A stretch of 64,000 bases of DNA from Clostridiales bacterium (GCA_022793655.1 JAAWDG010000001.1:59252-123251), one strand, 5' to 3'; positions 10,106-20,568 are shown, numbered from the stretch's first letter. Numbers and translations: made by a program. The notes: generated from the sequence alone by a model not told the origin.

Positions 10106-10651
10106 TTATGATTCCAACTGTCGGCCTAAGAAAGAGGCGGCGCTTTCGACTAATTTTGCTTCAATTTCTTGATTTTTAACCGATTCGCCTTTGGATATGA
10201 GTGAAACAACACAGCCAATAATATCACCGTCGGATACAATCGGCATGGCGCATGAAACGGTATATTTACCTGAATAATCGGCGGTTACATCACATTCGGC
10301 ATCGGTCGCCGGTCGATAGAGGGAACGGCCCTCCATAATGCTTTCCATATGGTGTGAAAGCCGTTTATCCATAAATTCTCTTTTTGGTACCCCCGCGCTG
10401 GCGATGACCGTGTCCCGGTCGCAAATGACGACAGACAGCTCGCATGTTTTATGAAGCGTTTCTGCATATTGTACGGCAAAAGCGCCGAGTTCGCCAATGG
10501 GTGAATATTTTTTAAATATAACCTCGCCGTCACGGTCGGTAAAAATTTCTAACGGATCGCCTTCTCTGATGCGCAGAACTCTTCTTATTTCTTTAGGTAT
10601 AACAACTCTGCCAAGGTCATCGATCCTTCTGACAATTCCTGTTGCTTTCAT
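10106..10651 (-). CDS. spoVT: stage V sporulation protein T (AbrB-family regulator)
   Basis: N-terminus MKATGIVRRIDDLGRVVIPKEIRRVLRIREGDPLEIF is the SpoVT/AbrB swapped-hairpin domain. It is followed by a GAF-like C-terminal domain. AAGGAGAG RBS. Confidence 0.9.
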   Translation of the reverse strand: MKATGIVRRIDDLGRVVIPKEIRRVLRIREGDPLEIFTDRDGEVIFKKYSPIGELGAFAVQYAETLHKTCELSVVICDRDTVIASAGVPKREFMDKRLSHHMESIMEGRSLYRPATDAECDVTADYSGKYTVSCAMPIVSDGDIIGCVVSLISKGESVKNQEIEAKLVESAASFLGRQLES

Positions 10652-10979: not shown

Positions 10980-11055
10980 AGGGGTATAGCTCAGTTGGTA
11001 GAGCAGCGGTCTCCAAAACCGCGTGTCCAGAGTTCGAGTCTTTGTGCCCCTGCCA
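10980..11055 (+). tRNA. trnW: tRNA-Trp (anticodon CCA), CCA end encoded
   Basis: Acceptor stem AGGGGTA/TGCCCCT. D-arm AGCTCAGTTGGTAGAGC. Anticodon loop CTCCAAA. T-arm GAGTTCGAGTCTT. Discriminator G plus CCA. Confidence 0.9.
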
Positions 11056-11141: not shown

Positions 11142-11178
11142 AGCCTTGCGTTTCTTAGAAACGCAAGGCTTTCTTTTT
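11142..11178 (+). terminator. rho-independent terminator downstream of tRNA-Trp
   Basis: agccttgcgtttc / gaaacgcaaggct stem followed by ttcttttt. An additional hairpin lies at about 11075-11108. Confidence 0.65.
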
Positions 11179-11789
11179 GCTTGATATGTGCTGATTTCGG
11201 GAGATTTCTCGTTGCCCGCACTTGACAACGGCTGCTACCCGCTCCGGCACGGTTACAACCGTACACATAGCGGTTATATGTACAGTAAAGGAATGACGGC
11301 CGCTGAGTTTTAAGAAAAAATGCACAAAAAATAAAATTATTTTCAATGCAATATATATAAAAAATAAAATTTATGCACAAAAAATGAATTTTATTGTTGA
11401 CTTTCTATCGATTACATGATACTATGCGTTCATAACCATTATTTTCCAAAACACGAAATGAATTCTCAAGCGCGCCACATTATACTCTATACTGTGTGCC
11501 TACCCAAACGAATTTTTTGCAGACGCACGGTGAATGTTTTAGCATCACGTGCGTCTGTTTTTTCTATAAAGTTCTTTTAATTTTATGACGCTGACACTTT
11601 AAATTATGTAAATTACTATGAGAAAAAAGGGGTAAATAATATGTTATAGATGCTTTTTTCGCTATATCAAAATGTCGATATTATTTAATAAATCAATCCT
11701 AAATATGTCGAACTATTTTCATCTCCTATGGATGAAGGCCACGTCTTCGAGGATATACGAATACAGCTGGATTAAGAAAGGGAAAAACA

Positions 11790-13166
11790 ATGGATATATT
11801 AAAAAACAATGTTTATAAACCTTCAATGTTTAATCATTTTGTGAATGATCCTGAAAGTGGTGCACTTATTCTCTTCAACTCATACTTGGGGGCAAGTAGC
11901 ATCATGAGTGTTCCTCAATTAAAAAAAGATAAAATCAAAAAATGGTTGGATAATGACTGTGTTTATAAAGAAGCTGTAACAGACGACAGTGATTTTATTA
12001 AACTCTCTCGGATGGGGTATTTTGTTGAAAGCTTGGTTAATGAAAAAGAGCAACGAGATATTTTATTGTCTAAGCTTCGGGACGATCCTACTTTGCGTCT
12101 TGTAATACATACTTCAAAAGCATGCAATTTCAGATGCAAGTATTGTTACCTTCATTTCAAAGATGAATACACACCTGAAGATAATATAAGTCTTGATGTT
12201 CAGGAAGGTATAATCAATTTTGTTAGAGACAATATTCAAAACTTTTCCGCGGTTCATGTTGACTGGTTTGGTGGTGAACCGCTGCTAGCCACCAATACTA
12301 TACAGTATGTATCGGAAAAACTGATAGAGATTTGCCGAGAAGCACACAAACCATATGAGGCAGTAATTACGACGAACGGGTATCTTTTGACGCCAAAAAA
12401 CATAGACCTTCTAATAAAAGCTAAAGTCCGACACTTTGCAATAACAATTGACGGAATCAAGGAGCAACACGATTCGTTTAGAATGCTGAAGAATGGCAGC
12501 GGAACATTCGACAAGATAATATCTAATTTGTTGTATATTCGAGATAATGTTAAAACACGCACGATTTCTATTTCTCTAAGAAGTAATATAACTGTAGATG
12601 CAGTAGAATTATTGAATAAATATTATGAATTCTACAATAAAATGTTTGGGGAGGATTCTCGTTTTTATTTATTTGTGCGACCTGTAAAGGACTTGGGCGG
12701 AGATAGTGTTGCTCAAATAAGTTCCTCATTGTTTCAAAAGAATCAAATTGATTTTAGTGTTGTTTTAGACAAGTTGGGTGGTATTGTAGATAGAATAAAA
12801 TTTGATGCTAACTTTATGGATTTGAATGTGGGCGGGATAAGGTGTTTTGCGAATAATAAAAATAGATATACGGTTGGAGTAGATGGGATGATATCAAAAT
12901 GTGATGAATCCATACCGGAAGTTGGAATTGGCAAATTGGATAAATTCGGCCAAATGCAACTGGATACGCCCAAGCTAAATGAGTGGATGAAACCCTCGCG
13001 AGTCAGTGAGAAATGCGACGAATGTTTCTATAGTTGTTGTTGTTTTATGGATCCGTGTCCCAAATCTCGAGTAAATAGTGGTCAAGAATCCTGCCCTTCA
13101 ACATACAGAGAGATTGATTCACTGATTTTACTTTATGTAAAATCATACCCAATAGAGGTTCTTTGA
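11790..13166 (+). CDS. radical SAM/SPASM-domain peptide maturase
   Basis: CX3CX2C motif (SKACNFRCKYCY). GGEPLL motif (WFGGEPLLA). C-terminal SPASM-type cysteines (CFANNKNRYTVGVDGMISKC ... CDECFYSCCCFMDPCP). AAAGGGA RBS. Confidence 0.88.
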   Translation: MDILKNNVYKPSMFNHFVNDPESGALILFNSYLGASSIMSVPQLKKDKIKKWLDNDCVYKEAVTDDSDFIKLSRMGYFVESLVNEKEQRDILLSKLRDDPTLRLVIHTSKACNFRCKYCYLHFKDEYTPEDNISLDVQEGIINFVRDNIQNFSAVHVDWFGGEPLLATNTIQYVSEKLIEICREAHKPYEAVITTNGYLLTPKNIDLLIKAKVRHFAITIDGIKEQHDSFRMLKNGSGTFDKIISNLLYIRDNVKTRTISISLRSNITVDAVELLNKYYEFYNKMFGEDSRFYLFVRPVKDLGGDSVAQISSSLFQKNQIDFSVVLDKLGGIVDRIKFDANFMDLNVGGIRCFANNKNRYTVGVDGMISKCDESIPEVGIGKLDKFGQMQLDTPKLNEWMKPSRVSEKCDECFYSCCCFMDPCPKSRVNSGQESCPSTYREIDSLILLYVKSYPIEVL

Positions 13167-13259
13167 TTGTATGTACAATCGTTTAATATGACACGAGATA
13201 TAATCACTGAGGTTAGTATTACATAAATTGACAGTCACCTATAAACCATGGAGGGATAT

Positions 13260-13529
13260 ATGAGCCACAATACTTATGACAATATTAAGGAAGAGGTTGT
13301 TAAAATACTGGAGAACAACGGAGTCGTTGTAGAGATGGAAAATGATGGCGATGCTGTTTTGGATATCGCAGCCATTGACTCTATTACGTTTATATCATTT
13401 ATTGTTGACATAGAAAATACATTTGGAATTGCTATTCCCGATGAACTGTTATCTCTTATGATTATACAATCGTTAAATGGTTTTGTTTATGTCTTGAGTG
13501 AGCTGCTAATCGAAAAGCGTGAATATTAA
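13260..13529 (+). CDS. acyl-carrier-protein-like small protein
   Basis: 89 aa, acidic. IDSITFISFIVDIENTFGIAIPDELL matches the carrier-protein helix II region, including the DS(L/I) phosphopantetheine-site pattern. GGAGGG RBS precedes ATG 13260. Confidence 0.75.
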   Translation: MSHNTYDNIKEEVVKILENNGVVVEMENDGDAVLDIAAIDSITFISFIVDIENTFGIAIPDELLSLMIIQSLNGFVYVLSELLIEKREY

Positions 13530-13607
13530 GTCGCACAGCAGCGGATATTCAATCCTAATATTATATTGGGATTCATGTCAAATAAACATAAAGAAAGGAG
13601 ATACACT

Positions 13608-13751
13608 ATGAAAAAGCTTAGAAAACCGACTTCCAAGCGCACGGAAACCCTTAACAAGGTACGTATTCTAGGAACGATGGCGACTTCTGAACCTGGTTCA
13701 AAGTATCAAGGCTGTCAGAATCCTCGTGGCTGTGGCTGCACAGCTTGCTAA
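13608..13751 (+). CDS. RiPP precursor peptide candidate (47 aa)
   Basis: AAAGGAG RBS lies 7 nt upstream of ATG 13608. Sequence MKKLRKPTSKRTETLNKVRILGTMATSEPGSKYQGCQNPRGCGCTAC has a basic leader and four Cys in the last 13 residues. It sits between the maturase genes and the exporters. Confidence 0.72.
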   Translation: MKKLRKPTSKRTETLNKVRILGTMATSEPGSKYQGCQNPRGCGCTAC

Positions 13752-13859
13752 CTAACTGAAGTGGATTGTAAATCGGAGTTTCTCTGACTACCATGGAGGA
13801 ACTCCGGTTGAAATCCTTTATAAAGGTTAAAACATGGAAAATTAATTGTTGGAGCTTAT

Positions 13860-15602
13860 ATGAAAAAACAATTCTCATGTCTTTTATTTTATTTTAAAAC
13901 TATATGGAAAAGAGAAAAACTGATTTTCCTTAATATCGGAATCTCTGTTTTAATCAACACATTTGCTTCATATGTAAATATATATTTTCTTAAATATCTT
14001 CTTGATTTCCTTGAAGCGGGAAAATATTCACATTCGATTCTCTGGACACTATGCTGTTTAGTGGTTATGAATCTAACGTCAAATATCTCAAGTTTGCTGA
14101 ATATCACTGTTTCAAACGCATACTACCGCATAAACACGTATCTTCGTTCCCAGGTTTTGAATATCAGTACTTCAGTCAGATTTGAGGAGATCGAAAATCC
14201 GGATGCACTCAATCATTTCGAACTTGCACACAAATGTGTGAACCAGAATATTCTTTCAAGTTACACACAGGTGCTTATAAGCATAGTGTCATCCGTTTTT
14301 GTTATCGCTGGGACGGTATATATTTCGTTTGAAATCAAATGGTGGATGTCAATCCTGGCTCTTAGTGTAACGGCTATCAATACAGTTTGTAATATTCTTA
14401 TCTCAAAAAACGAGATCGCGCGTTTTCATGAGGAGACCGCAGTGAGTAAGCAGCTCGAATACAGCAGGTTTTGGTTGACTGACATCAGCCGTGCTAAGGA
14501 AGTGCGTACATACACACTCCATAGATATATCGTAAATAAGCTGCGTGAGTATAATGACAAACTTTTTGCATCGCTTCATAAATTCACGAAAAAAAGGAAG
14601 AAGCCGTACCTTGTCATTGAAATAATAAACGCTATTCAATTATTTGCCGTATATTCTTTTTGTGCATATCAAATGGTTTCTGAGGGAATCAGTGCCGGAG
14701 ATTTCATGCTGTATTCGTCGGCAGTGTTTACCTTTGGCGGAGCACTCAACAGCATTACGAATAGCGTGATCAGCTTTTGGAACACAAACAGTTTGATGAT
14801 AACATTGATCAGCGTGTTAGATATTACAAAAAATCTCGAAAAGAGGACATTGTTTGACGAAGAGCTTAAAACGATCGAATTCAGAAATGTATCTTTCTCA
14901 TACAACAGCAGCGACGAAAATGCAATTGAGGACATAAGTTTCACTGTCAATTCAAATGAAAAATTCTCGATTATCGGCGAAAACGGTGCAGGGAAAAGTA
15001 CACTTGTTAAACTGCTTCTCGGAATGTATACTCCGACAAAGGGGGCGATCTTTATTAACGGAAAAATAATGGATCCCGAAAAGTATGACTACACACCACT
15101 GTTCAGTGCTGTGTTTCAGGACTACAAGATATTCAGCTTTACCGTCGAAGACAATATAAAAATGAGCGAAAAAGAACTGAGCGAAGGCGAAAAAGAAAAG
15201 ATTCGTTCTTTGCTCGGTTCTATGGGTATGCAGAGCATAAATACGAACTCATTCATTACACAGACGTTTTCAGATGACGGGATAAACTTTTCCGGAGGAG
15301 AGGCACAAAAGCTTGCCATTGTCCGGGCGCTTTACAAGGATGCGCCGATAATAGTTCTTGATGAACCCACCGCTGCACTCTCGCCCCAGAGTGAGTATGA
15401 GATCTATCAGAACTTCAACGCTCTGACAAAGGATAAAACCATTTTATTTATATCTCATCGGCTGTCAAGCTGCCGAATATGCGATAAGATCCTCCTGCTC
15501 CATAACGGCAGACTGGAGGCGCTCGGTTCTCACGATGAGCTTTTCGGATCCAATGTACTCTATACAGAGATGTTTTCCGCTCAGGCAGAGCTGTTCGGTT
15601 AA
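13860..15602 (+). CDS. ABC exporter, fused permease/ATPase subunit 1
   Basis: N-terminal six-helix TMD. Walker A GENGAGKST, signature FSGGEAQK, Walker B IIVLDEPTAAL. No C39 peptidase domain. Confidence 0.9.
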   Translation: MKKQFSCLLFYFKTIWKREKLIFLNIGISVLINTFASYVNIYFLKYLLDFLEAGKYSHSILWTLCCLVVMNLTSNISSLLNITVSNAYYRINTYLRSQVLNISTSVRFEEIENPDALNHFELAHKCVNQNILSSYTQVLISIVSSVFVIAGTVYISFEIKWWMSILALSVTAINTVCNILISKNEIARFHEETAVSKQLEYSRFWLTDISRAKEVRTYTLHRYIVNKLREYNDKLFASLHKFTKKRKKPYLVIEIINAIQLFAVYSFCAYQMVSEGISAGDFMLYSSAVFTFGGALNSITNSVISFWNTNSLMITLISVLDITKNLEKRTLFDEELKTIEFRNVSFSYNSSDENAIEDISFTVNSNEKFSIIGENGAGKSTLVKLLLGMYTPTKGAIFINGKIMDPEKYDYTPLFSAVFQDYKIFSFTVEDNIKMSEKELSEGEKEKIRSLLGSMGMQSINTNSFITQTFSDDGINFSGGEAQKLAIVRALYKDAPIIVLDEPTAALSPQSEYEIYQNFNALTKDKTILFISHRLSSCRICDKILLLHNGRLEALGSHDELFGSNVLYTEMFSAQAELFG

Positions 15603-15637: not shown

Positions 15638-17410
15638 ATGGCTTTAGCAGATAAAATAAAAAAAGTTTTCAAGACCTCATTTGAAGTGTCTGCGATGTTC
15701 ATACGGAACTGCAAGAAGCTCTTGCTCTTGGATGTTTTTCTTGGAATCAGCCGAGAGGTAAGACAGCTTATTATAACTGTTCTGCCGTCCATAGTGATTT
15801 GGCTTTGTACAGGTTCCGAATATACTATAGTTTCTTCGGTTATCGCGGCGATGGTTGCAGCAATTGCTGTTCTTGGAATCCTTATCGAGAAAGGTCAGTG
15901 CAATCTGTCGGACAACTCATTGCACGCAACCAATACCCTATACTACTTTTTAAATGGTAAAAATGCTCGTCTTGATTTGAAAGATGCCGAAGACGGTACA
16001 ATAATTGATCAGTACTACAAGGCATTTGATAACATTTACAATTTTAGCGATGTGCATTACAGTATTTTCTGTGTTCTTCTTGGCAAACTGATCTCCTTTG
16101 CTATCATGAGCGCCTTCATTATTTCGGTTGACATCAGATTGTATCCGATCGTACTCGCAGAAAACTTTATCGTTTTGATTATTAAGGCAAAGAAGAATCA
16201 TATTGATCACTCATTTGAAGAGGAAATATCAAAGAATACGAAAAAGGTAAAATACCTCTCGGAGCTTCTTTATGATTTTGAAGCCGGACGTGATCTCAGG
16301 ATTTATAACGGAAATGATATGGTAAGCAACAGATACATGGATGAGCTCCTTCACGCAAGAAGAATTGAGATCAAAAAACAACGTAAGGATTTTCTTATAG
16401 ACCTCGTTATCGGTATTTTGGGACTTGGACAACTATTCCTTATATATCTTCTGGCGATAAACAAATATTTTGTCGGAGGACTTTTGCTCGTAAATTTTAT
16501 TCTGTACGTAAACGCATCCAATCAGATTGCCTCATCTATTTCCGATATTGTGTGGACGGTGAGCGTCCTGCACACTGCCTCGATCTATTATGAGGACTTC
16601 AACAAATATATGGAGCTCGAAGAGACAATTCGCGAAAAAGGAACTGATACTCCTCCTTTGGGAAGTTCTGTGCCATTCATAGAGTTTAGAAATGTCTCGT
16701 TTAAATATCCGAATCAGGAGATCTTTTCATTAGAAAATTTCTCATGTACCATTGAATATGGCGATCATATTTCCATAGTCGGTGACAATGGTGCAGGAAA
16801 ATCAACTTTTGTAAAGCTGCTCCTGAGGCTTTACGAGCCGACAGAGGGTACGATCTATTACAAGGGAAAAGATATCAGGGAATACGATTTTGATTCCTAT
16901 CAGACTGTATTTGCTCCGGTATTTCAGGATTATGTTCTGAACGCTTTCTCGATCCGCGAAAACCTGATTTTCGATTATGACGAAAGAAATGATTTGATAA
17001 AATCTTCGCTTGAAAAAACGGGGATGTATGATAAAATCATGGATGTCGGTCTGGACAGACCGTACAGTCGAAAATTCTTTGAGGATGGTATCGAATTGTC
17101 GGGCGGAGAACAGCAGCGGCTTGTGATCTCACGAGCATACTGTAAGAATGCCGAGGTACTCATACTCGACGAACCGACCGCCGCAATCGATCCGCTCTCA
17201 GAACGCAAGCTGTTTGAGGATGTTTTCAGCAGTATTGGGGAAAGAACGAGCATAATGATATCGCACAGGATGTCCTGTTCAAAATTCTCAAACAGAATAT
17301 TTGTGATGGATCACGGAAAGCTCGTTGAGCAAGGTGCTCACGACAAGCTAATCAATGCAAACGGGTTGTATTCTTTTATGTATCGTCGGCAGGCACAGTA
17401 CTATTCGTGA
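15638..17410 (+). CDS. ABC exporter, fused permease/ATPase subunit 2
   Basis: TMD followed by Walker A GDNGAGKST, signature LSGGEQQR and Walker B VLILDEPTAAID. Probable heterodimer partner of the preceding gene. Confidence 0.9.
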   Translation: MALADKIKKVFKTSFEVSAMFIRNCKKLLLLDVFLGISREVRQLIITVLPSIVIWLCTGSEYTIVSSVIAAMVAAIAVLGILIEKGQCNLSDNSLHATNTLYYFLNGKNARLDLKDAEDGTIIDQYYKAFDNIYNFSDVHYSIFCVLLGKLISFAIMSAFIISVDIRLYPIVLAENFIVLIIKAKKNHIDHSFEEEISKNTKKVKYLSELLYDFEAGRDLRIYNGNDMVSNRYMDELLHARRIEIKKQRKDFLIDLVIGILGLGQLFLIYLLAINKYFVGGLLLVNFILYVNASNQIASSISDIVWTVSVLHTASIYYEDFNKYMELEETIREKGTDTPPLGSSVPFIEFRNVSFKYPNQEIFSLENFSCTIEYGDHISIVGDNGAGKSTFVKLLLRLYEPTEGTIYYKGKDIREYDFDSYQTVFAPVFQDYVLNAFSIRENLIFDYDERNDLIKSSLEKTGMYDKIMDVGLDRPYSRKFFEDGIELSGGEQQRLVISRAYCKNAEVLILDEPTAAIDPLSERKLFEDVFSSIGERTSIMISHRMSCSKFSNRIFVMDHGKLVEQGAHDKLINANGLYSFMYRRQAQYYS

Positions 17411-17466: not shown

Positions 17467-19272
17467 ATGAATAAGGAATATGATGTTGTTGTGATCGATA
17501 CCGGAGTTGAAAAAGCACATTCCAGATTGGCAAATCATGATATTGAATGCATAAAAATAACAAAAGTAACAGATGGGTTTATAGTGGAAGATTTGTCAGA
17601 TGGCGGAGATGATGTCGGACACGGGACAGCTGTATGTGATATAATAGCATCACATTATAAGGACGTTTCTATTCTTGTAATAAAAGCATTTGATAGCACA
17701 CTTAGTGCAGATGAATCATTGATAGTAGATGTTTTGTATTACATCTATGAAAATATCGCTTGTCGAATTATTAATATGAGTTTGGGGATTTCAATAGAAA
17801 GCGATAAATTGAAAGAAATATGTTATAATTTGGCTAATAAAGGGATTATACTTATAGCAGCATTTGATAATGATGGCTCTATAGCATATCCGGCGGCATT
17901 TGATAGTGTTATTGGAGTAACTTCATGTAACTATTGCACCAGAAATAATGATTATATTATTGTGAACGATCAAAGAGTAAACATCGGAGCTAAAGGGGGA
18001 CTTCAGAAAATAGCATGGAGCGCAAACAGTATATTAGTCGGAGTAGGAGATAGCTATGCTTGTGCACATGTTTCTGGAATAAGTGCAAATTTAATATCCC
18101 AAAGAACGGTTGAAAACAAAGAACAATTAATATGCGAACTAAAAGTACTGCAGGATGAAATCGAAAATAATAAAGTTAACGATCCTGTTCGTTGTAAAAC
18201 CCGGGTGGTCAATTTTAGCAAGGTGGCTTTATTCCCATTTAATAAAGAAATGCACGCTCTTGTTAGATTTTCGGATATGTTGCCATTTACAATTACAGGA
18301 ATTTATGATATAAAATATTCTCCTAATATAGGTGTAACGGCAGAACGACTTTTGAGGCTTAATTCTTCTTCGAAAACAACAATAAGAAATATAAACTCTA
18401 TCAATTGGGATGAAATTGATACATTAATTATTGGCCACACGCGGGATTTGTTTAACAATATTGTGAAGAATAATTCATTGCTCCATCTTTTATTATCTCA
18501 GGCTGAAACACTGAACAAAAATGTATTTTCATTTGATCAGATTCCTAAATCATTTGAGAATGTGCCCAATTTTGTTGCCCCGCCTATTTATAGGAATTAC
18601 GAACCTATTCCTTTTGGAAAACTATATCATATTTCCAAACCGGTTCTGGCTGTTTTTGGAACCGATTCTCAACAAGGTAAATTTTCTCTTCAGTTAGCTT
18701 TGAGAAAAAATCTTTTGTCTCGTGGTTATAAGGTTGGTCAATTAGGAACAGAACCAACAAGTTTTTTGTTTGAAATGGATGAATGTATTCATTTTGGATA
18801 CGATTCGGATTTGAACCCGGTTGGTTTTGAATTTGTGTCATTGGTAAACTCACTTTTAAATAATATATCTAGTCGAAACGTGGATATTATAATTACCGGT
18901 TGTCAATCGTCTACTTTATTGACTAATGAGGGAAATTTAGCATATTATCCTGTTCAACAGATTAATTTTTTATTAGGTACGCTTCCGGATGCTGTTATTT
19001 TGGTTGTCAATCCTGATGACCAAGAAAAGACAATTGATAGGACTATTTCATTTATAGAATCTTGTGTGGAAACAAAGGTTATTGCTATTGTTGTTTTCCC
19101 TATGGAAAAAAATCCTTCTAATAAAAATTTGATCAAAACGCATATTTCAGAAAATTCATATAGCAGCATTAAGAAATCAATGCAAAGTAGATACAATATA
19201 AACGTTTTTATCTTTGATGATGATAATGAAATAAACCAATTAACAGAATTGATTGAAGACTTTTTTGGATAA
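17467..19272 (+). CDS. S8 (subtilisin-like) serine peptidase fused to a roughly 350-aa C-terminal domain of unknown function
   Basis: Catalytic-triad contexts VVVIDTGV (Asp), VGHGTAV (His), NMSLG (oxyanion Asn) and GDSYACAHVSG (Ser). No signal peptide. The C-terminal half contains GTDSQQGKFS, reminiscent of DUF1611-type proteins. Confidence 0.8.
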   Translation: MNKEYDVVVIDTGVEKAHSRLANHDIECIKITKVTDGFIVEDLSDGGDDVGHGTAVCDIIASHYKDVSILVIKAFDSTLSADESLIVDVLYYIYENIACRIINMSLGISIESDKLKEICYNLANKGIILIAAFDNDGSIAYPAAFDSVIGVTSCNYCTRNNDYIIVNDQRVNIGAKGGLQKIAWSANSILVGVGDSYACAHVSGISANLISQRTVENKEQLICELKVLQDEIENNKVNDPVRCKTRVVNFSKVALFPFNKEMHALVRFSDMLPFTITGIYDIKYSPNIGVTAERLLRLNSSSKTTIRNINSINWDEIDTLIIGHTRDLFNNIVKNNSLLHLLLSQAETLNKNVFSFDQIPKSFENVPNFVAPPIYRNYEPIPFGKLYHISKPVLAVFGTDSQQGKFSLQLALRKNLLSRGYKVGQLGTEPTSFLFEMDECIHFGYDSDLNPVGFEFVSLVNSLLNNISSRNVDIIITGCQSSTLLTNEGNLAYYPVQQINFLLGTLPDAVILVVNPDDQEKTIDRTISFIESCVETKVIAIVVFPMEKNPSNKNLIKTHISENSYSSIKKSMQSRYNINVFIFDDDNEINQLTELIEDFFG

Positions 19273-19323: not shown

Positions 19324-20352
19324 ATGAAAAAGTTACTTTCAATTGAGTATAAACATCTCGTCGATGTGACAGAATGCTGGACGCTTGAAAAATTGTCAAT
19401 TATACAGGCCTCTCCCTTTTCAGAAGATTGGCTTGCTTCACATCTGAATATTATTATGCATTCTGATTACTCGGTGAGTTTTGGAGATTCATATTATAAA
19501 TATTCACCAGCTTATTTTGATGATATTTTGCACGCCAAAGTTATAGATTATTTTCAGAATCAAAATGTGTTAGATATTATTATTGACAATATAAATCAAG
19601 GGAGATATGTCAAGTTTTTTCGATGGTTAATATATGGTTACAATATTGATGAAAAAATAGTTTATGTCTTATTTGAAAAGACTACTCCTGAGGAAAATAT
19701 CATTACTTTTGATGAAGTAGAGACAAGATTTAGAGGGTTTATAAAAGAATTTGGTAAAGAGGACTTATCGAATAGAGATATTAATGCTCGCTTATATGTA
19801 GCAAAACACTTTCAATATCCATTTGTTACTTATGCGATTCGAAAAGATTATTCTGTTGACAATTGCCCATATTCTGCATTAACTAAAATTGACCGAGAAA
19901 TATGGGGGAATAGATTACAGATTACAGGGTGGGATGATACCAATCCTGAGAAAGTTACAATGGTCTATGATGGGATTGCCTGTTTACAAGGTTTGAAAAA
20001 ACAGGTGTTTGCATACACGATGGGCGACACTGCTAATGTTTCGCGATTGGCCCAAACAATAAAGAAGTTACATGAGCATCGATGCCTGTTGCTATTATCT
20101 CTAAATTATATTCGAAAAAAGTGGAAGATAGAGTTAGATTCATGCGATGAATGTATAAAAACATACAGTGCTTGCTGCAATATAGTTGAGCGGTGGTGTC
20201 TTTTAGCTTTAAAATACGAAGCGATATCAGAACCACGGTTGTTGCAAAAAATTCATGATGCAATTGATAAGCAGTTAGAACAAGAAAAACATGCTCTTTT
20301 AGAATTCCGAAAAATAGCCTATGGTTGGTATAACGAACAGAATCTTATTTAA
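19324..20352 (+). CDS. hypothetical 342-aa protein, last gene of the island operon
   Basis: GGGGAG RBS and a long AT-rich ORF co-directional with the cluster. No family recognised by eye. Confidence 0.7.
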   Translation: MKKLLSIEYKHLVDVTECWTLEKLSIIQASPFSEDWLASHLNIIMHSDYSVSFGDSYYKYSPAYFDDILHAKVIDYFQNQNVLDIIIDNINQGRYVKFFRWLIYGYNIDEKIVYVLFEKTTPEENIITFDEVETRFRGFIKEFGKEDLSNRDINARLYVAKHFQYPFVTYAIRKDYSVDNCPYSALTKIDREIWGNRLQITGWDDTNPEKVTMVYDGIACLQGLKKQVFAYTMGDTANVSRLAQTIKKLHEHRCLLLLSLNYIRKKWKIELDSCDECIKTYSACCNIVERWCLLALKYEAISEPRLLQKIHDAIDKQLEQEKHALLEFRKIAYGWYNEQNLI

Positions 20353-20523: not shown

Positions 20524-20568
20524 CTCCAAAACCGCGTGTCCAGAGTTCGAGTCTTTGTGCCCCTGCCA
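20524..20568 (+). repeat. displaced 3' half of tRNA-Trp (att-like direct repeat)
   Basis: Identical to 11011-11055. No 5' half of a tRNA precedes it. A hairpin terminator follows. Confidence 0.85.

What the first reader, a model, noticed from the sequence alone, without database searches (positions are those of the whole stretch)
13608..13751. Candidate precursor peptide with a GCQNPRGCGCTAC core
The 47-aa ORF has the best RBS in the island (AAAGGAG, 7-nt spacing). Its leader is basic (MKKLRKPTSKRTETLNKVRILG...). All four cysteines sit in the last 13 residues, and the peptide ends in Cys. It lies exactly between the modifying genes and the exporter genes. An imperfect hairpin follows (cggagtt 13774-13780 / aactccg 13800-13806, no U-tract) and could attenuate read-through, as is often seen after RiPP structural genes. 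There is only one precursor copy. The track's TTG start at 13566 has no RBS.
Basis: partly seen in the sequence, partly recalled or inferred. Interest (0 to 1): 0.7.

Follow-up and report, generated by a model that had tools for sequence, protein, structure and literature searches.

The report
Cys-rich RiPP precursor peptide gene
The 47-codon ORF is very probably a real gene for the precursor of a small cysteine-rich peptide that neighbouring enzymes cross-link, trim and export; it belongs to an unnamed, chemically unexplored branch of a peptide-maturation system common in gut Clostridia.

Summary
ORF 13608-13751 encodes MKKLRKPTSKRTETLNKVRILGTMATSEPGSKYQGCQNPRGCGCTAC, preceded by AAAGGAG with a 7-nt spacer and followed by a stable hairpin.

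The ORF is conserved in at least 16 related peptide clusters and loci. It always sits in the order rSAM/SPASM, ACP-like protein, peptide, two ABC exporters, then a subtilase fused to a DUF1611/TIGR04066 domain. Codon changes in the core are almost all synonymous (12 synonymous, 2 non-synonymous against the L087 relative, whose rSAM is 54% identical).

Within the close family the core is invariant (…PG.K[YF]..C.NPRGCGC..C) and the leader varies. Across a wider family of more than 1,500 subtilase-DUF1611 proteins the reverse holds: the leader motif MKKLxKP…φLYxxE is shared and the Cys-rich core differs.

The rSAM model matches the thioether synthase CteB over its full length. No curated family cut-off is met. 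The gene set and leader motif parallel Haft's CLI_3235/CcpM system (SacP23), whose chemistry is unsolved.

The cluster lies on a 9.5-kb low-GC island at tRNA-Trp, flanked by exact 45-bp direct repeats.

Verdict: a genuine RiPP precursor and a new variant of a known kind. The thioether chemistry and the role of the ACP and DUF1611 parts are inferred, not shown.

The parts
10980..11055 (+). Intact tRNA-Trp(CCA). Its 3' 45 nt (11011-11055) form the left direct repeat of the island.
   Evidence: ARAGORN and Rfam tRNA at 62.8 bits. Exact 45-mer match.
11790..13166 (+). Radical SAM/SPASM peptide maturase (458 aa). It has an N-terminal RRE-like domain, CX3CX2C at C112/C116/C119, and SPASM cysteines C352, C371, C409, C412, C418, C423, C435.
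   Evidence: Pfam Radical_SAM at 67 bits. Best NCBIfam hit is TIGR04463 at 157 bits, below the 525 cut-off. The Cys residues are invariant in 60 homologues. AF2 pLDDT is 93, and the best PDB match is CteB 5wgg over the full length, TM 0.67-0.69. By sequence, CteB gives E = 3e-21.
13248..13529 (+). ACP-like carrier protein (93 aa; the start may be the ATG at 13260). The phosphopantetheine-type Asp-Ser is at D44-S45.
   Evidence: PF00550 at 23.5 bits, above the 20.8 cut-off. Weak hits to many ACP models and none to TIGR04069. The DS motif is kept in 20 of 21 aligned family members; the exception (L005) has SS, so the Ser itself is present in all.
13594..13600 (+). Shine-Dalgarno AAAGGAG, 7 nt upstream of the precursor ATG.
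   Evidence: Sequence. A strong SD at the same distance is present in L001, L003, L084, L087 and L088.
13608..13751 (+). Precursor peptide gene (47 aa). The leader is about residues 1-24, with motifs MKKLRKP and VRILGT. The core is about residues 25-47 and ends ...PGSKYQGCQNPRGCGCTAC.
13771..13809 (+). 15-bp stem-loop right after the precursor stop codon, without a U-tract. Probably a partial terminator or transcript stabiliser.
   Evidence: Fold at z = -4.8. Hairpins of different sequence sit at the same position in L001-L003, L084, L087, L088 and in several distant loci.
13860..15602 (+). ABC exporter half-transporter 1 (580 aa), with no C39 peptidase domain.
   Evidence: Alignments to bacteriocin ABC models start after the peptidase domain.
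15638..17410 (+). ABC exporter half-transporter 2 (590 aa).
17467..19272 (+). Fusion protein (601 aa). The N-terminal part is a subtilase with no signal peptide (triad D11/H52/S196). The C-terminal part is a full two-domain DUF1611/TIGR04066-like protein with P-loop GTDSQQGK405.
   Evidence: Pfam S8 plus DUF1611. QhpE at 127 bits and TIGR04066 at 65-68 bits, both below cut-off. The residues are invariant in 43 homologues. AF2 pLDDT 88.8. Foldseek hits subtilisins and the DUF1611 structures 2g0t and 2obn, TMt about 0.7.
19324..20352 (+). 342-aa protein of unknown function inside the island. An accessory gene, absent from the closest relative L001.
   Evidence: No Pfam or NCBIfam hit. Only one distant homologue, in L007, directly after the fusion gene.
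20524..20568 (+). Right direct repeat: an exact copy of the tRNA-Trp 3' 45 nt. It marks the end of the low-GC island.
   Evidence: GC profile.

Best explanation
ORF 13608-13751 is the structural (precursor) gene of a ribosomally synthesised, post-translationally modified peptide.

Proposed pathway:
1. The basic leader (MKKLRKP...VRILGT) is bound by the N-terminal RRE-like domain of the adjacent radical SAM/SPASM enzyme.
2. That enzyme uses its three Fe-S clusters to turn some or all of Cys36/42/44/47 into intramolecular thioether cross-links, of the sactionine or ranthionine type. These go to carbons of other core residues; the invariant Asn38-Pro-Arg-Gly segment is the obvious acceptor region.
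3. The cytoplasmic subtilase domain of the 601-aa fusion protein removes the leader somewhere around residues 24-28.
4. The DUF1611/TIGR04066 P-loop domain fused to the subtilase, together with the ACP-like protein, performs a further step coupled to leader removal. This is most likely capping of the new N-terminus.
5. The heterodimeric ABC pair exports a product of about 2 kDa, probably a narrow-spectrum bacteriocin or signal.
6. The hairpin after the stop codon keeps precursor mRNA in excess over enzyme mRNA.

Shown: the gene is real, conserved and under purifying selection; the synteny; the domain architectures and folds; the leader motif shared across the family.

Inferred: the thioether chemistry, the cleavage site, the role of the ACP and DUF1611 parts, and the biological activity.
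For: - Gene reality. There are 10 homologous clusters at 69-91% identity with an invariant PGSKYQGCQNPRGCGC core. More distant members keep C-x-N-P-R-G-C-G-C-x-x-C. In the core, synonymous against non-synonymous codon changes are 6:0, 8:2, 6:2 and 12:2 in four pairwise comparisons (binomial). A strong SD is conserved.
- Context. The order rSAM, ACP, peptide, ABC, ABC, S8-DUF1611 is kept in L001-L003, L084-L088 and L175.
- Wider family. Of 17 species-representative loci carrying the S8-DUF1611 fusion, 15 have a small ORF with the leader MKKLxK[PK]...φ[LF]Y..E and a Cys-containing tail (13 directly downstream of the ACP-like gene; in L005 downstream of the fusion gene; in L007 after the rSAM gene). 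The strict motif search gave no hit in about 60 loci lacking the fusion.
- Enzyme. The seven SPASM cysteines and CX3CX2C are invariant. All top NCBIfam neighbours act on Cys-rich peptides: TIGR04463, CefB, Clo7bot, PapB, CcpM, SCIFF. The full-length structural match is to the thioether synthase CteB, including its N-terminal domain.
- Protease. The catalytic triad is invariant and there is no signal peptide. The ABC proteins lack a C39 domain.
- ACP and DUF1611 relevance. The Ser is kept across the family. The P-loop residues are invariant. The fusion to the protease is conserved in more than 1,500 proteins.
- SacP23. This is the only expressed member of the parallel CLI_3235 system. It has the same gene set and an MRKLVKR... 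leader, is antimicrobial, and has an Edman-blocked N-terminus with a mass different from that predicted (PMC10731318).
- Hairpin. It is conserved by position in the relatives.
Against: - There are no expression, proteomic or mass-spectrometry data.
- No protein of the cluster reaches the curated cut-off of any named RiPP family, so the chemistry is extrapolated from remote relatives.
- The acceptor residues are unknown.
- The window's clade has lost the upstream fifth Cys that most relatives keep.
- Compared with the closest relative (L001/L002), the window lacks three genes upstream of the rSAM.
- Related clusters have decayed in other lineages, with a truncated rSAM or a deleted leader. The system is therefore dispensable and could be silent here.
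- No immunity gene is recognisable.
- A role for the ACP and DUF1611 parts in N-terminal capping rests on the domain fusion, on one indirect observation in SacP23, and on my unverified recollection that a DUF1611 enzyme (DgcN) is an acetyl-CoA-dependent N-acetyltransferase. The literature search did not retrieve it.
Confidence: 0.75

Rival explanations
1. The ORF is a genuine secreted Cys-rich peptide, but its cysteines form disulfides or bind metal. In this reading the rSAM installs a different modification (epimerisation, C-methylation, a C-C or C-O cross-link), or acts on Cys in another way than thioether formation.
For: SPASM enzymes catalyse many reaction types: the Foldseek list includes SuiB, TigE, ChlB and the epimerase EpeE. 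No curated thioether-synthase model is matched above cut-off. The CGC and CxxC spacings also occur in metal-binding peptides (general knowledge).
Against: The closest sequence and structure neighbours are all Cys-targeting thioether enzymes or Cys-rich-peptide maturases. Across the wider family, Cys is the only residue type common to otherwise unrelated cores.
Confidence: 0.15
2. The gene is real in evolutionary terms, but the cluster in this genome is a silent or decaying relic on a mobile island and makes no product.
For: The window lacks the 234-, 94- and 74-aa genes that precede the rSAM in L001/L002. Relatives show repeated erosion from the same (left) end: the rSAM is 5'-truncated in L171, L174 and L177, and the rSAM, ACP and leader are deleted in L170, L172, L173 and L176. 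No clear promoter was identified, because the consensus scan is not informative.
Against: All six core genes are intact in the window, with catalytic residues in place. The three missing genes are also absent from L084 and L087, whose core clusters are intact.
Confidence: 0.08
3. The ORF is a chance open frame or a mis-called piece of intergenic DNA. The conservation would then reflect a regulatory RNA element.
For: The ORF is short and lies in AT-rich DNA. A structured RNA lies immediately downstream.
Against: The synonymous excess follows the codon phase. Amino-acid conservation persists down to 47% rSAM identity while the DNA is diverged. The SD and ATG are conserved. There is no Rfam hit.
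Confidence: 0.02

Closest known systems
CLI_3235 / CcpM 'Cys-rich peptide' maturation system. Haft's in-silico families are TIGR04065 (precursor), TIGR04068 (rSAM CcpM), TIGR04066 and TIGR04069 (ACP-related). Examples are the Roseburia intestinalis L1-82 cluster and SacP23 of Paenibacillus polymyxa.
   Same: The parts list is the same: rSAM/SPASM, a TIGR04066-type protein, a small ACP-like protein, a subtilase, ABC export, and a short Cys-rich precursor (PMC4573289; PMC10731318). The SacP23 leader MRKLVKR...TIEAFGC resembles MKKLRKP...VRILGT. The C-terminal half of the window's fusion protein aligns end to end with TIGR04066.
   Different: All four HMMs fail: 97 against 500 bits, 65-68 against 200 bits, and no hit for TIGR04069 or TIGR04065. 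Here the subtilase and the TIGR04066 protein are one polypeptide. The carrier protein scores as an ordinary ACP. The core (…NPRGCGC..C) is unrelated to the CxC repeats of CLI_3235 peptides.
Ranthipeptide and sactipeptide synthases: CteB (thermocellin, PDB 5wgg) and PapB (freyrasin).
   Same: Three-domain architecture of RRE, rSAM and SPASM with seven conserved SPASM cysteines. They give the best PDB sequence and fold matches. PapB is the best-scoring biochemically characterised NCBIfam family known to me (115 bits). The substrate is Cys-rich.
   Different: About 20% identity only, below family cut-offs. Those systems have no ACP or DUF1611 partner. PapB targets CxxxD motifs, and the window's core has no Asp or Glu after residue 28.
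TIGR04463 'rSAM_vs_C_rich' and CefB (Cys-every-fifth) maturase families.
   Same: These are the highest-scoring curated models for the window's rSAM and for every wider-family rSAM tested. They are also associated with very short Cys-rich peptides (family names).
   Different: Scores are 150-194 against a cut-off of 525, and 112-169 against a cut-off of 600. This is not membership. The partners of those families were not examined here.
QhpC/QhpD/QhpE maturation of quinohemoprotein amine dehydrogenase.
   Same: An rSAM/SPASM enzyme makes Cys thioethers in a small Cys-containing polypeptide, and a cytoplasmic subtilisin-like protease removes its leader (established knowledge). The window's S8 domain is most similar to QhpE (127 bits).
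   Different: The score is below the QhpE cut-off of 165. There are no dehydrogenase subunit genes. The peptide is exported by ABC transporters rather than assembled into an enzyme.

Membership tests
RiPP precursor peptide (generic) | Short ORF encoded next to its maturase and conserved with it across genomes. | tested here: met
RiPP precursor peptide (generic) | Two-part leader and core with a family-wide recognition motif in the leader. | tested here: met
   MKKLxK[PK] and φLY..E motifs are shared by 15 of 17 wider-family loci and by the window's clade, while the cores differ.
RiPP precursor peptide (generic) | The peptide is translated and post-translationally modified. | not testable with these tools
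   Only indirect evidence: purifying selection on the codons.
Sactipeptide / ranthipeptide | rSAM maturase with a SPASM domain carrying auxiliary Fe-S cluster cysteines. | tested here: met
   CX3CX2C plus seven SPASM Cys are invariant. CteB-like fold.
Sactipeptide / ranthipeptide | Maturase belongs to a curated thioether-synthase family (PapB, SCIFF/ScfB, RumMC, CteB-like). | tested here: not met
   Scores against cut-offs: PapB 115 vs 340, SCIFF 85 vs 425, RumMC 68 vs 720.
Sactipeptide / ranthipeptide | Cys S to Cα (sacti) or Cβ/Cγ (ranthi) thioether in the mature peptide. | not testable with these tools
   Needs MS/MS and NMR.
CLI_3235 / CcpM system | rSAM matches TIGR04068 above cut-off. 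| tested here: not met
   97 bits against 500.
CLI_3235 / CcpM system | TIGR04066 protein present. | tested here: inconclusive
   Full-length alignment (2-347 against 2-356 of 361), E = 6e-19, but 68 bits against a cut-off of 200, and fused to a subtilase.
CLI_3235 / CcpM system | TIGR04069 ACP-related protein present. | tested here: not met
   No TIGR04069 hit even at E <= 10. The protein matches ordinary ACP models and PF00550.
CLI_3235 / CcpM system | Precursor matches TIGR04065. | tested here: not met
   No hit for the window's peptide. Only a non-significant hit (E = 1.4) of the L031 leader to model positions 1-9.
TIGR04463 rSAM family | Score above the curated cut-off. | tested here: not met
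   157 against 525 for the window. 150-194 for ten wider-family members.
tRNA-integrated genomic island | Direct repeats formed by the tRNA 3' end, plus atypical composition. | tested here: met
   Exact 45-bp repeats at 11011-11055 and 20524-20568. GC is 32-40% inside against about 50% outside. The same repeats bracket the cluster in L001.
tRNA-integrated genomic island | Integrase encoded in the island. | tested here: not met
   No integrase domain among the island ORFs.

The most novel reading that the evidence does not exclude
The ACP-like protein and the DUF1611/TIGR04066 P-loop domain, which is fused to the leader protease, carry out a RiPP tailoring reaction not yet described and mechanistically coupled to leader removal. 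One possibility is transfer of an acyl group from the phosphopantetheinylated carrier onto the newly exposed N-terminus. Another is carrier-tethered activation leading to cyclisation. If so, this peptide and the more than 1,500 related clusters in gut Clostridia would form a new RiPP class rather than another sacti- or ranthipeptide.
Probability: 0.25. Interest if true: 0.8.

Novelty: new variant of a known kind. Interest (0 to 1): 0.55.

Why it matters
The peptide family has no name, no Pfam or NCBIfam model and no characterised member. Its enzyme set is shared with a very large, uncharacterised group of gut-bacterial clusters: more than 1,500 subtilase-DUF1611 fusion proteins and more than 2,000 rSAM relatives.

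The window gives a compact six-gene version with a single, short, highly constrained substrate. That makes it a convenient entry point for two questions: what the ACP and TIGR04066 components do in RiPP maturation (open since the families were defined in silico), and what these peptides do in gut communities (bacteriocin, signal or other).

The leader motif defined here can also be used to find the otherwise unannotated precursors in related clusters.

Tried and rejected
1. A resemblance of C-x-N-P-x-x-C...C-T-A-C to heat-stable enterotoxin or guanylin peptides (recalled from memory). Pfam at E <= 10 and the PDB sequence search gave nothing except a chance kringle 'CRNPRG' match at E = 9. The Cys spacing also differs. 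Dropped.
2. Phage carriage. A scan of viral contigs with the rSAM profile found nothing closer than 30% identity.
3. Literature on DUF1611, DgcN and ACP-containing rSAM RiPPs. The searches returned nothing relevant beyond two papers that mention the TIGR families. Haft & Basu 2011 could not be retrieved under the PMC id I tried. The DgcN analogy is therefore unverified memory.
4. The 342-aa gene and the three upstream genes of L001. No family hits, and only one distant homologue of the 342-aa protein.
5. A looser leader regex meant to link Paenibacillus and Bacillus loci to the CLI_3235 leader gave only noise.
6. The consensus promoter and terminator scan was uninformative in this AT-rich island.
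7. The TTG start at 13566 was rejected: there is no SD, and the N-terminal extensions called in some metagenomic homologues are not conserved beyond what the RBS region explains.

Full report
**Observation**

Window 13608-13751 (+) reads ATG...TAA and encodes MKKLRKPTSKRTETLNKVRILGTMATSEPGSKYQGCQNPRGCGCTAC.
- AAAGGAG lies at 13594-13600, 7 nt before the ATG.
- The alternative TTG at 13566 has no SD.
- The peptide has four Cys in the last 12 residues and ends in Cys.
- The first 23 residues carry 8 K/R and 1 D/E.
- A six-frame motif search finds no second copy in the window.
The spacer folds with z = -4.8 against shuffles.
- No U-tract follows.

The description is therefore correct, with the hairpin understated.

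**Neighbourhood**

All genes are on the + strand:
- rSAM/SPASM enzyme, 11790-13166.
- 93-aa ACP-like protein, 13248-13529 (PF00550 above cut-off). Its better start may be 13260, which has a GGAGGG SD.
- The peptide.
- Two ABC half-transporters without a C39 peptidase domain, 13860-15602 and 15638-17410.
- A 601-aa protein, 17467-19272, whose N-terminal half is a subtilase and whose C-terminal half is DUF1611/TIGR04066-like.
- An orphan 342-aa gene, 19324-20352.

The block has 32-40% GC in a genome of about 50% GC. It is bracketed by exact 45-bp direct repeats, one being the 3' end of an intact tRNA-Trp at 10980-11055, the other at 20524-20568. The same repeats flank the homologous cluster in the metagenomic locus L001. 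The cluster therefore rides on a small tRNA-targeting island that carries no integrase of its own.

**Is the ORF a gene?**

A protein search finds 10 clusters at 69-91% identity. All are unnamed and all come from metagenomes or MAGs. They are invariant from P29 to C44 and at C47. An exhaustive profile search of 1.84 billion representative proteins finds only six 50%-identity clusters, so the peptide family is small.

More distant members were recovered by walking from rSAM homologues at 60%, 54% and 47% identity, from the profile search and from a back-translated DNA pattern. They keep the consensus C-x(2-3)-G-x-x-[FY]-x(1-2)-[GA]-C-x-N-P-R-G-C-G-C-x-x-C. The window's clade has lost the first Cys.

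In codon alignments, the core shows these synonymous:non-synonymous changes against the window:

| Comparison | Synonymous | Non-synonymous |
|---|---|---|
| L001 | 6 | 0 |
| L003 | 8 | 2 |
| L084 | 6 | 2 |
| L087 | 12 | 2 |

The leader shows 5:19 against L087. A crude binomial for 12 of 14 gives about 3e-6 to 3e-5. Every relative has a strong SD at the same distance. This is a translated gene under strong purifying selection on its C-terminal 19-20 residues.

**Family context**

Synteny (rSAM, ACP, peptide, ABC, ABC, fusion) is kept in all close loci.

A scan of species-representative genomes with an rSAM profile returned 80 loci. Seventeen of them, from Lachnospiraceae, Oscillospiraceae, Erysipelotrichaceae, Spirochaetaceae and Paludibacteraceae MAGs, also carry the ACP-like gene and a fusion protein of about 600 aa.

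In 15 of these 17 loci there is a small ORF, in 13 of them directly after the ACP-like gene (in L005 it follows the fusion gene; in L007 it follows the rSAM gene). It begins M(x)KKLxK[PK]..K, continues with φ-[LF]-Y-x-x-[EN], and ends in a short, Cys-containing and otherwise unrelated tail. Several loci have two to seven tandem copies. The strict motif gave 22 hits, all on the cluster strand and at that position (in L005 downstream of the fusion gene). It gave no hit in the roughly 60 loci without the fusion.

In the alignment, the window's VRILGT occupies the place of the φLY..E motif. It places the leader/core boundary near residue 24. The mature peptide is then about 19-24 residues rather than 13.

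The ACP-like proteins keep the Asp-Ser of the phosphopantetheine site in 20 of 21 aligned sequences, and the exception (L005, Ser-Ser) still has the Ser. The fusion protein family has more than 1,500 members, with an invariant subtilase triad (D11, H52, S196) and P-loop (G398...G404-K405).

**Enzymes**

The rSAM has CX3CX2C (C112/116/119) and seven further cysteines arranged as in a SPASM domain. All are invariant in 60 homologues. Its AF2 model (pLDDT 93) superposes over its full length, including the N-terminal β3-α3 RRE-like domain, on the thioether synthase CteB (TM 0.67-0.69). anSME, TigE, ChlB and SuiB follow. CteB is also the only strong PDB sequence hit.

The best NCBIfam neighbours are all maturases of Cys-rich peptides, with these scores:

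| Family | Bits |
|---|---|
| TIGR04463 | 157 |
| CefB | 133 |
| Clo7bot | 124 |
| PapB | 115 |
| CcpM | 97 |
| SCIFF | 85 |

None reaches its cut-off. The same holds for ten wider-family rSAMs. The peptides hit no model.

The fusion protein model (pLDDT 88.8) is a subtilisin joined by a disordered linker to a complete two-domain DUF1611 fold (2g0t, 2obn; TMt about 0.7). Its C-terminal half aligns end to end with TIGR04066 at E = 6e-19, but at 68 bits against a cut-off of 200. The protein has no signal peptide, so leader removal should be cytoplasmic.

**Comparison with what is known**

The parts list equals that of the CLI_3235/CcpM system defined in silico (TIGR04065/66/68/69). That system has been noted in Roseburia intestinalis (PMC4573289) and in Paenibacillus polymyxa, where SacP23 was expressed heterologously (PMC10731318).
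- SacP23's precursor is MRKLVKRSTNVGDTIEAFGCGCSC..., a leader of the same pattern.
- The product kills MRSA.
- It weighs 3.4 kDa rather than the predicted 4.46 kDa.
- It is refractory to Edman degradation.
- Its cross-links are undetermined.

The window's system works like that one, but it fails every HMM membership test, fuses two of the proteins, and has an unrelated core. I therefore file it as a new variant of that kind and not as a member.

**Mechanism**

Best supported pathway:
1. Leader binding by the RRE of the rSAM.
2. Radical formation of Cys-derived thioethers.
3. Leader cleavage by the fused subtilase.
4. A coupled step by the DUF1611 domain with the carrier protein.
5. ABC export.

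The gene's reality, the architecture, the folds and the family motif are shown. The chemistry is inferred from remote homology.

The proposed N-terminal capping is a hypothesis. It rests on the conserved fusion, on the conserved carrier Ser, and on SacP23's blocked N-terminus. My recollection that the DUF1611 enzyme DgcN is an N-acetyltransferase could not be verified in the library.

The hairpin after the stop codon recurs at the same position, with unrelated sequences, in all close loci and in several distant ones. This fits a processing or attenuation element that raises precursor mRNA over enzyme mRNA, as is known for lantibiotic operons (established knowledge).

**Caveats**

- Relative to L001/L002, the window lacks three small genes upstream of the rSAM.
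- In other lineages the cluster is visibly decaying from that end.
- The system is therefore dispensable, and expression here is unproven.
- No immunity gene is evident.

**Verdict**

It is a new variant of a known kind, of moderate interest. Interest would be higher if the ACP and DUF1611 step proves to be new chemistry.

Noticed in passing
window 11011-11055 and 20524-20568; L001 5550-5594 and 15878-15922: Exact 45-bp direct repeats, identical to the 3' end of tRNA-Trp, bracket the 9.5-kb low-GC RiPP island. The same repeats bracket the homologous cluster in another metagenomic genome with different flanks. No integrase lies inside. L001 appears to hold two such elements in tandem.
   Followed up: partly
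window 11172-11790, compared with L001 6244-8195: The window lacks the 234-, 94- and 74-aa genes that precede the rSAM gene in the closest relatives (L001/L002). These genes have no family hits. Only short remnants at 72-76% identity remain, at 11461-11562 and 11693-11759.
   Followed up: partly
L171, L174, L177; L170, L172, L173, L176: These are decayed versions of the cluster in metagenomes, one of them labelled human gut. In the first group the rSAM has lost its first ~188 codons, including CX3CX2C. In the second group the rSAM, the ACP and the leader half of the precursor are deleted, while the ABC genes and the fusion gene persist.
   Followed up: partly
window 13248 vs 13260: The ACP-like gene probably starts at the ATG at 13260, which has GGAGGG 4 nt upstream, rather than at 13248, which has no SD.
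   Followed up: no
window 19324-20352: This is an orphan 342-aa protein inside the island with no Pfam or NCBIfam hit. Its only detectable relative (23% identity) sits in the same position after the fusion gene in L007. It could be an immunity or accessory protein.
   Followed up: partly
P0253: One metagenomic homologue of the precursor is frameshifted after ...EPGSK and loses the Cys-rich tail. This is either a pseudogene or an assembly error.
   Followed up: no
L006 9576-11531; L041 9338-9877; L046 9417-9621: Distant family members carry two to seven tandem precursor genes with the same leader and different Cys-rich cores. The Spirochaetaceae MAG has at least seven. The window has a single copy.
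   Followed up: partly
window 10106-10651 (-): A SpoVT sporulation regulator (TIGR02851, 238 bits, above cut-off) lies just upstream of the tRNA-Trp. It marks the host as a spore-forming Firmicute.
   Followed up: no
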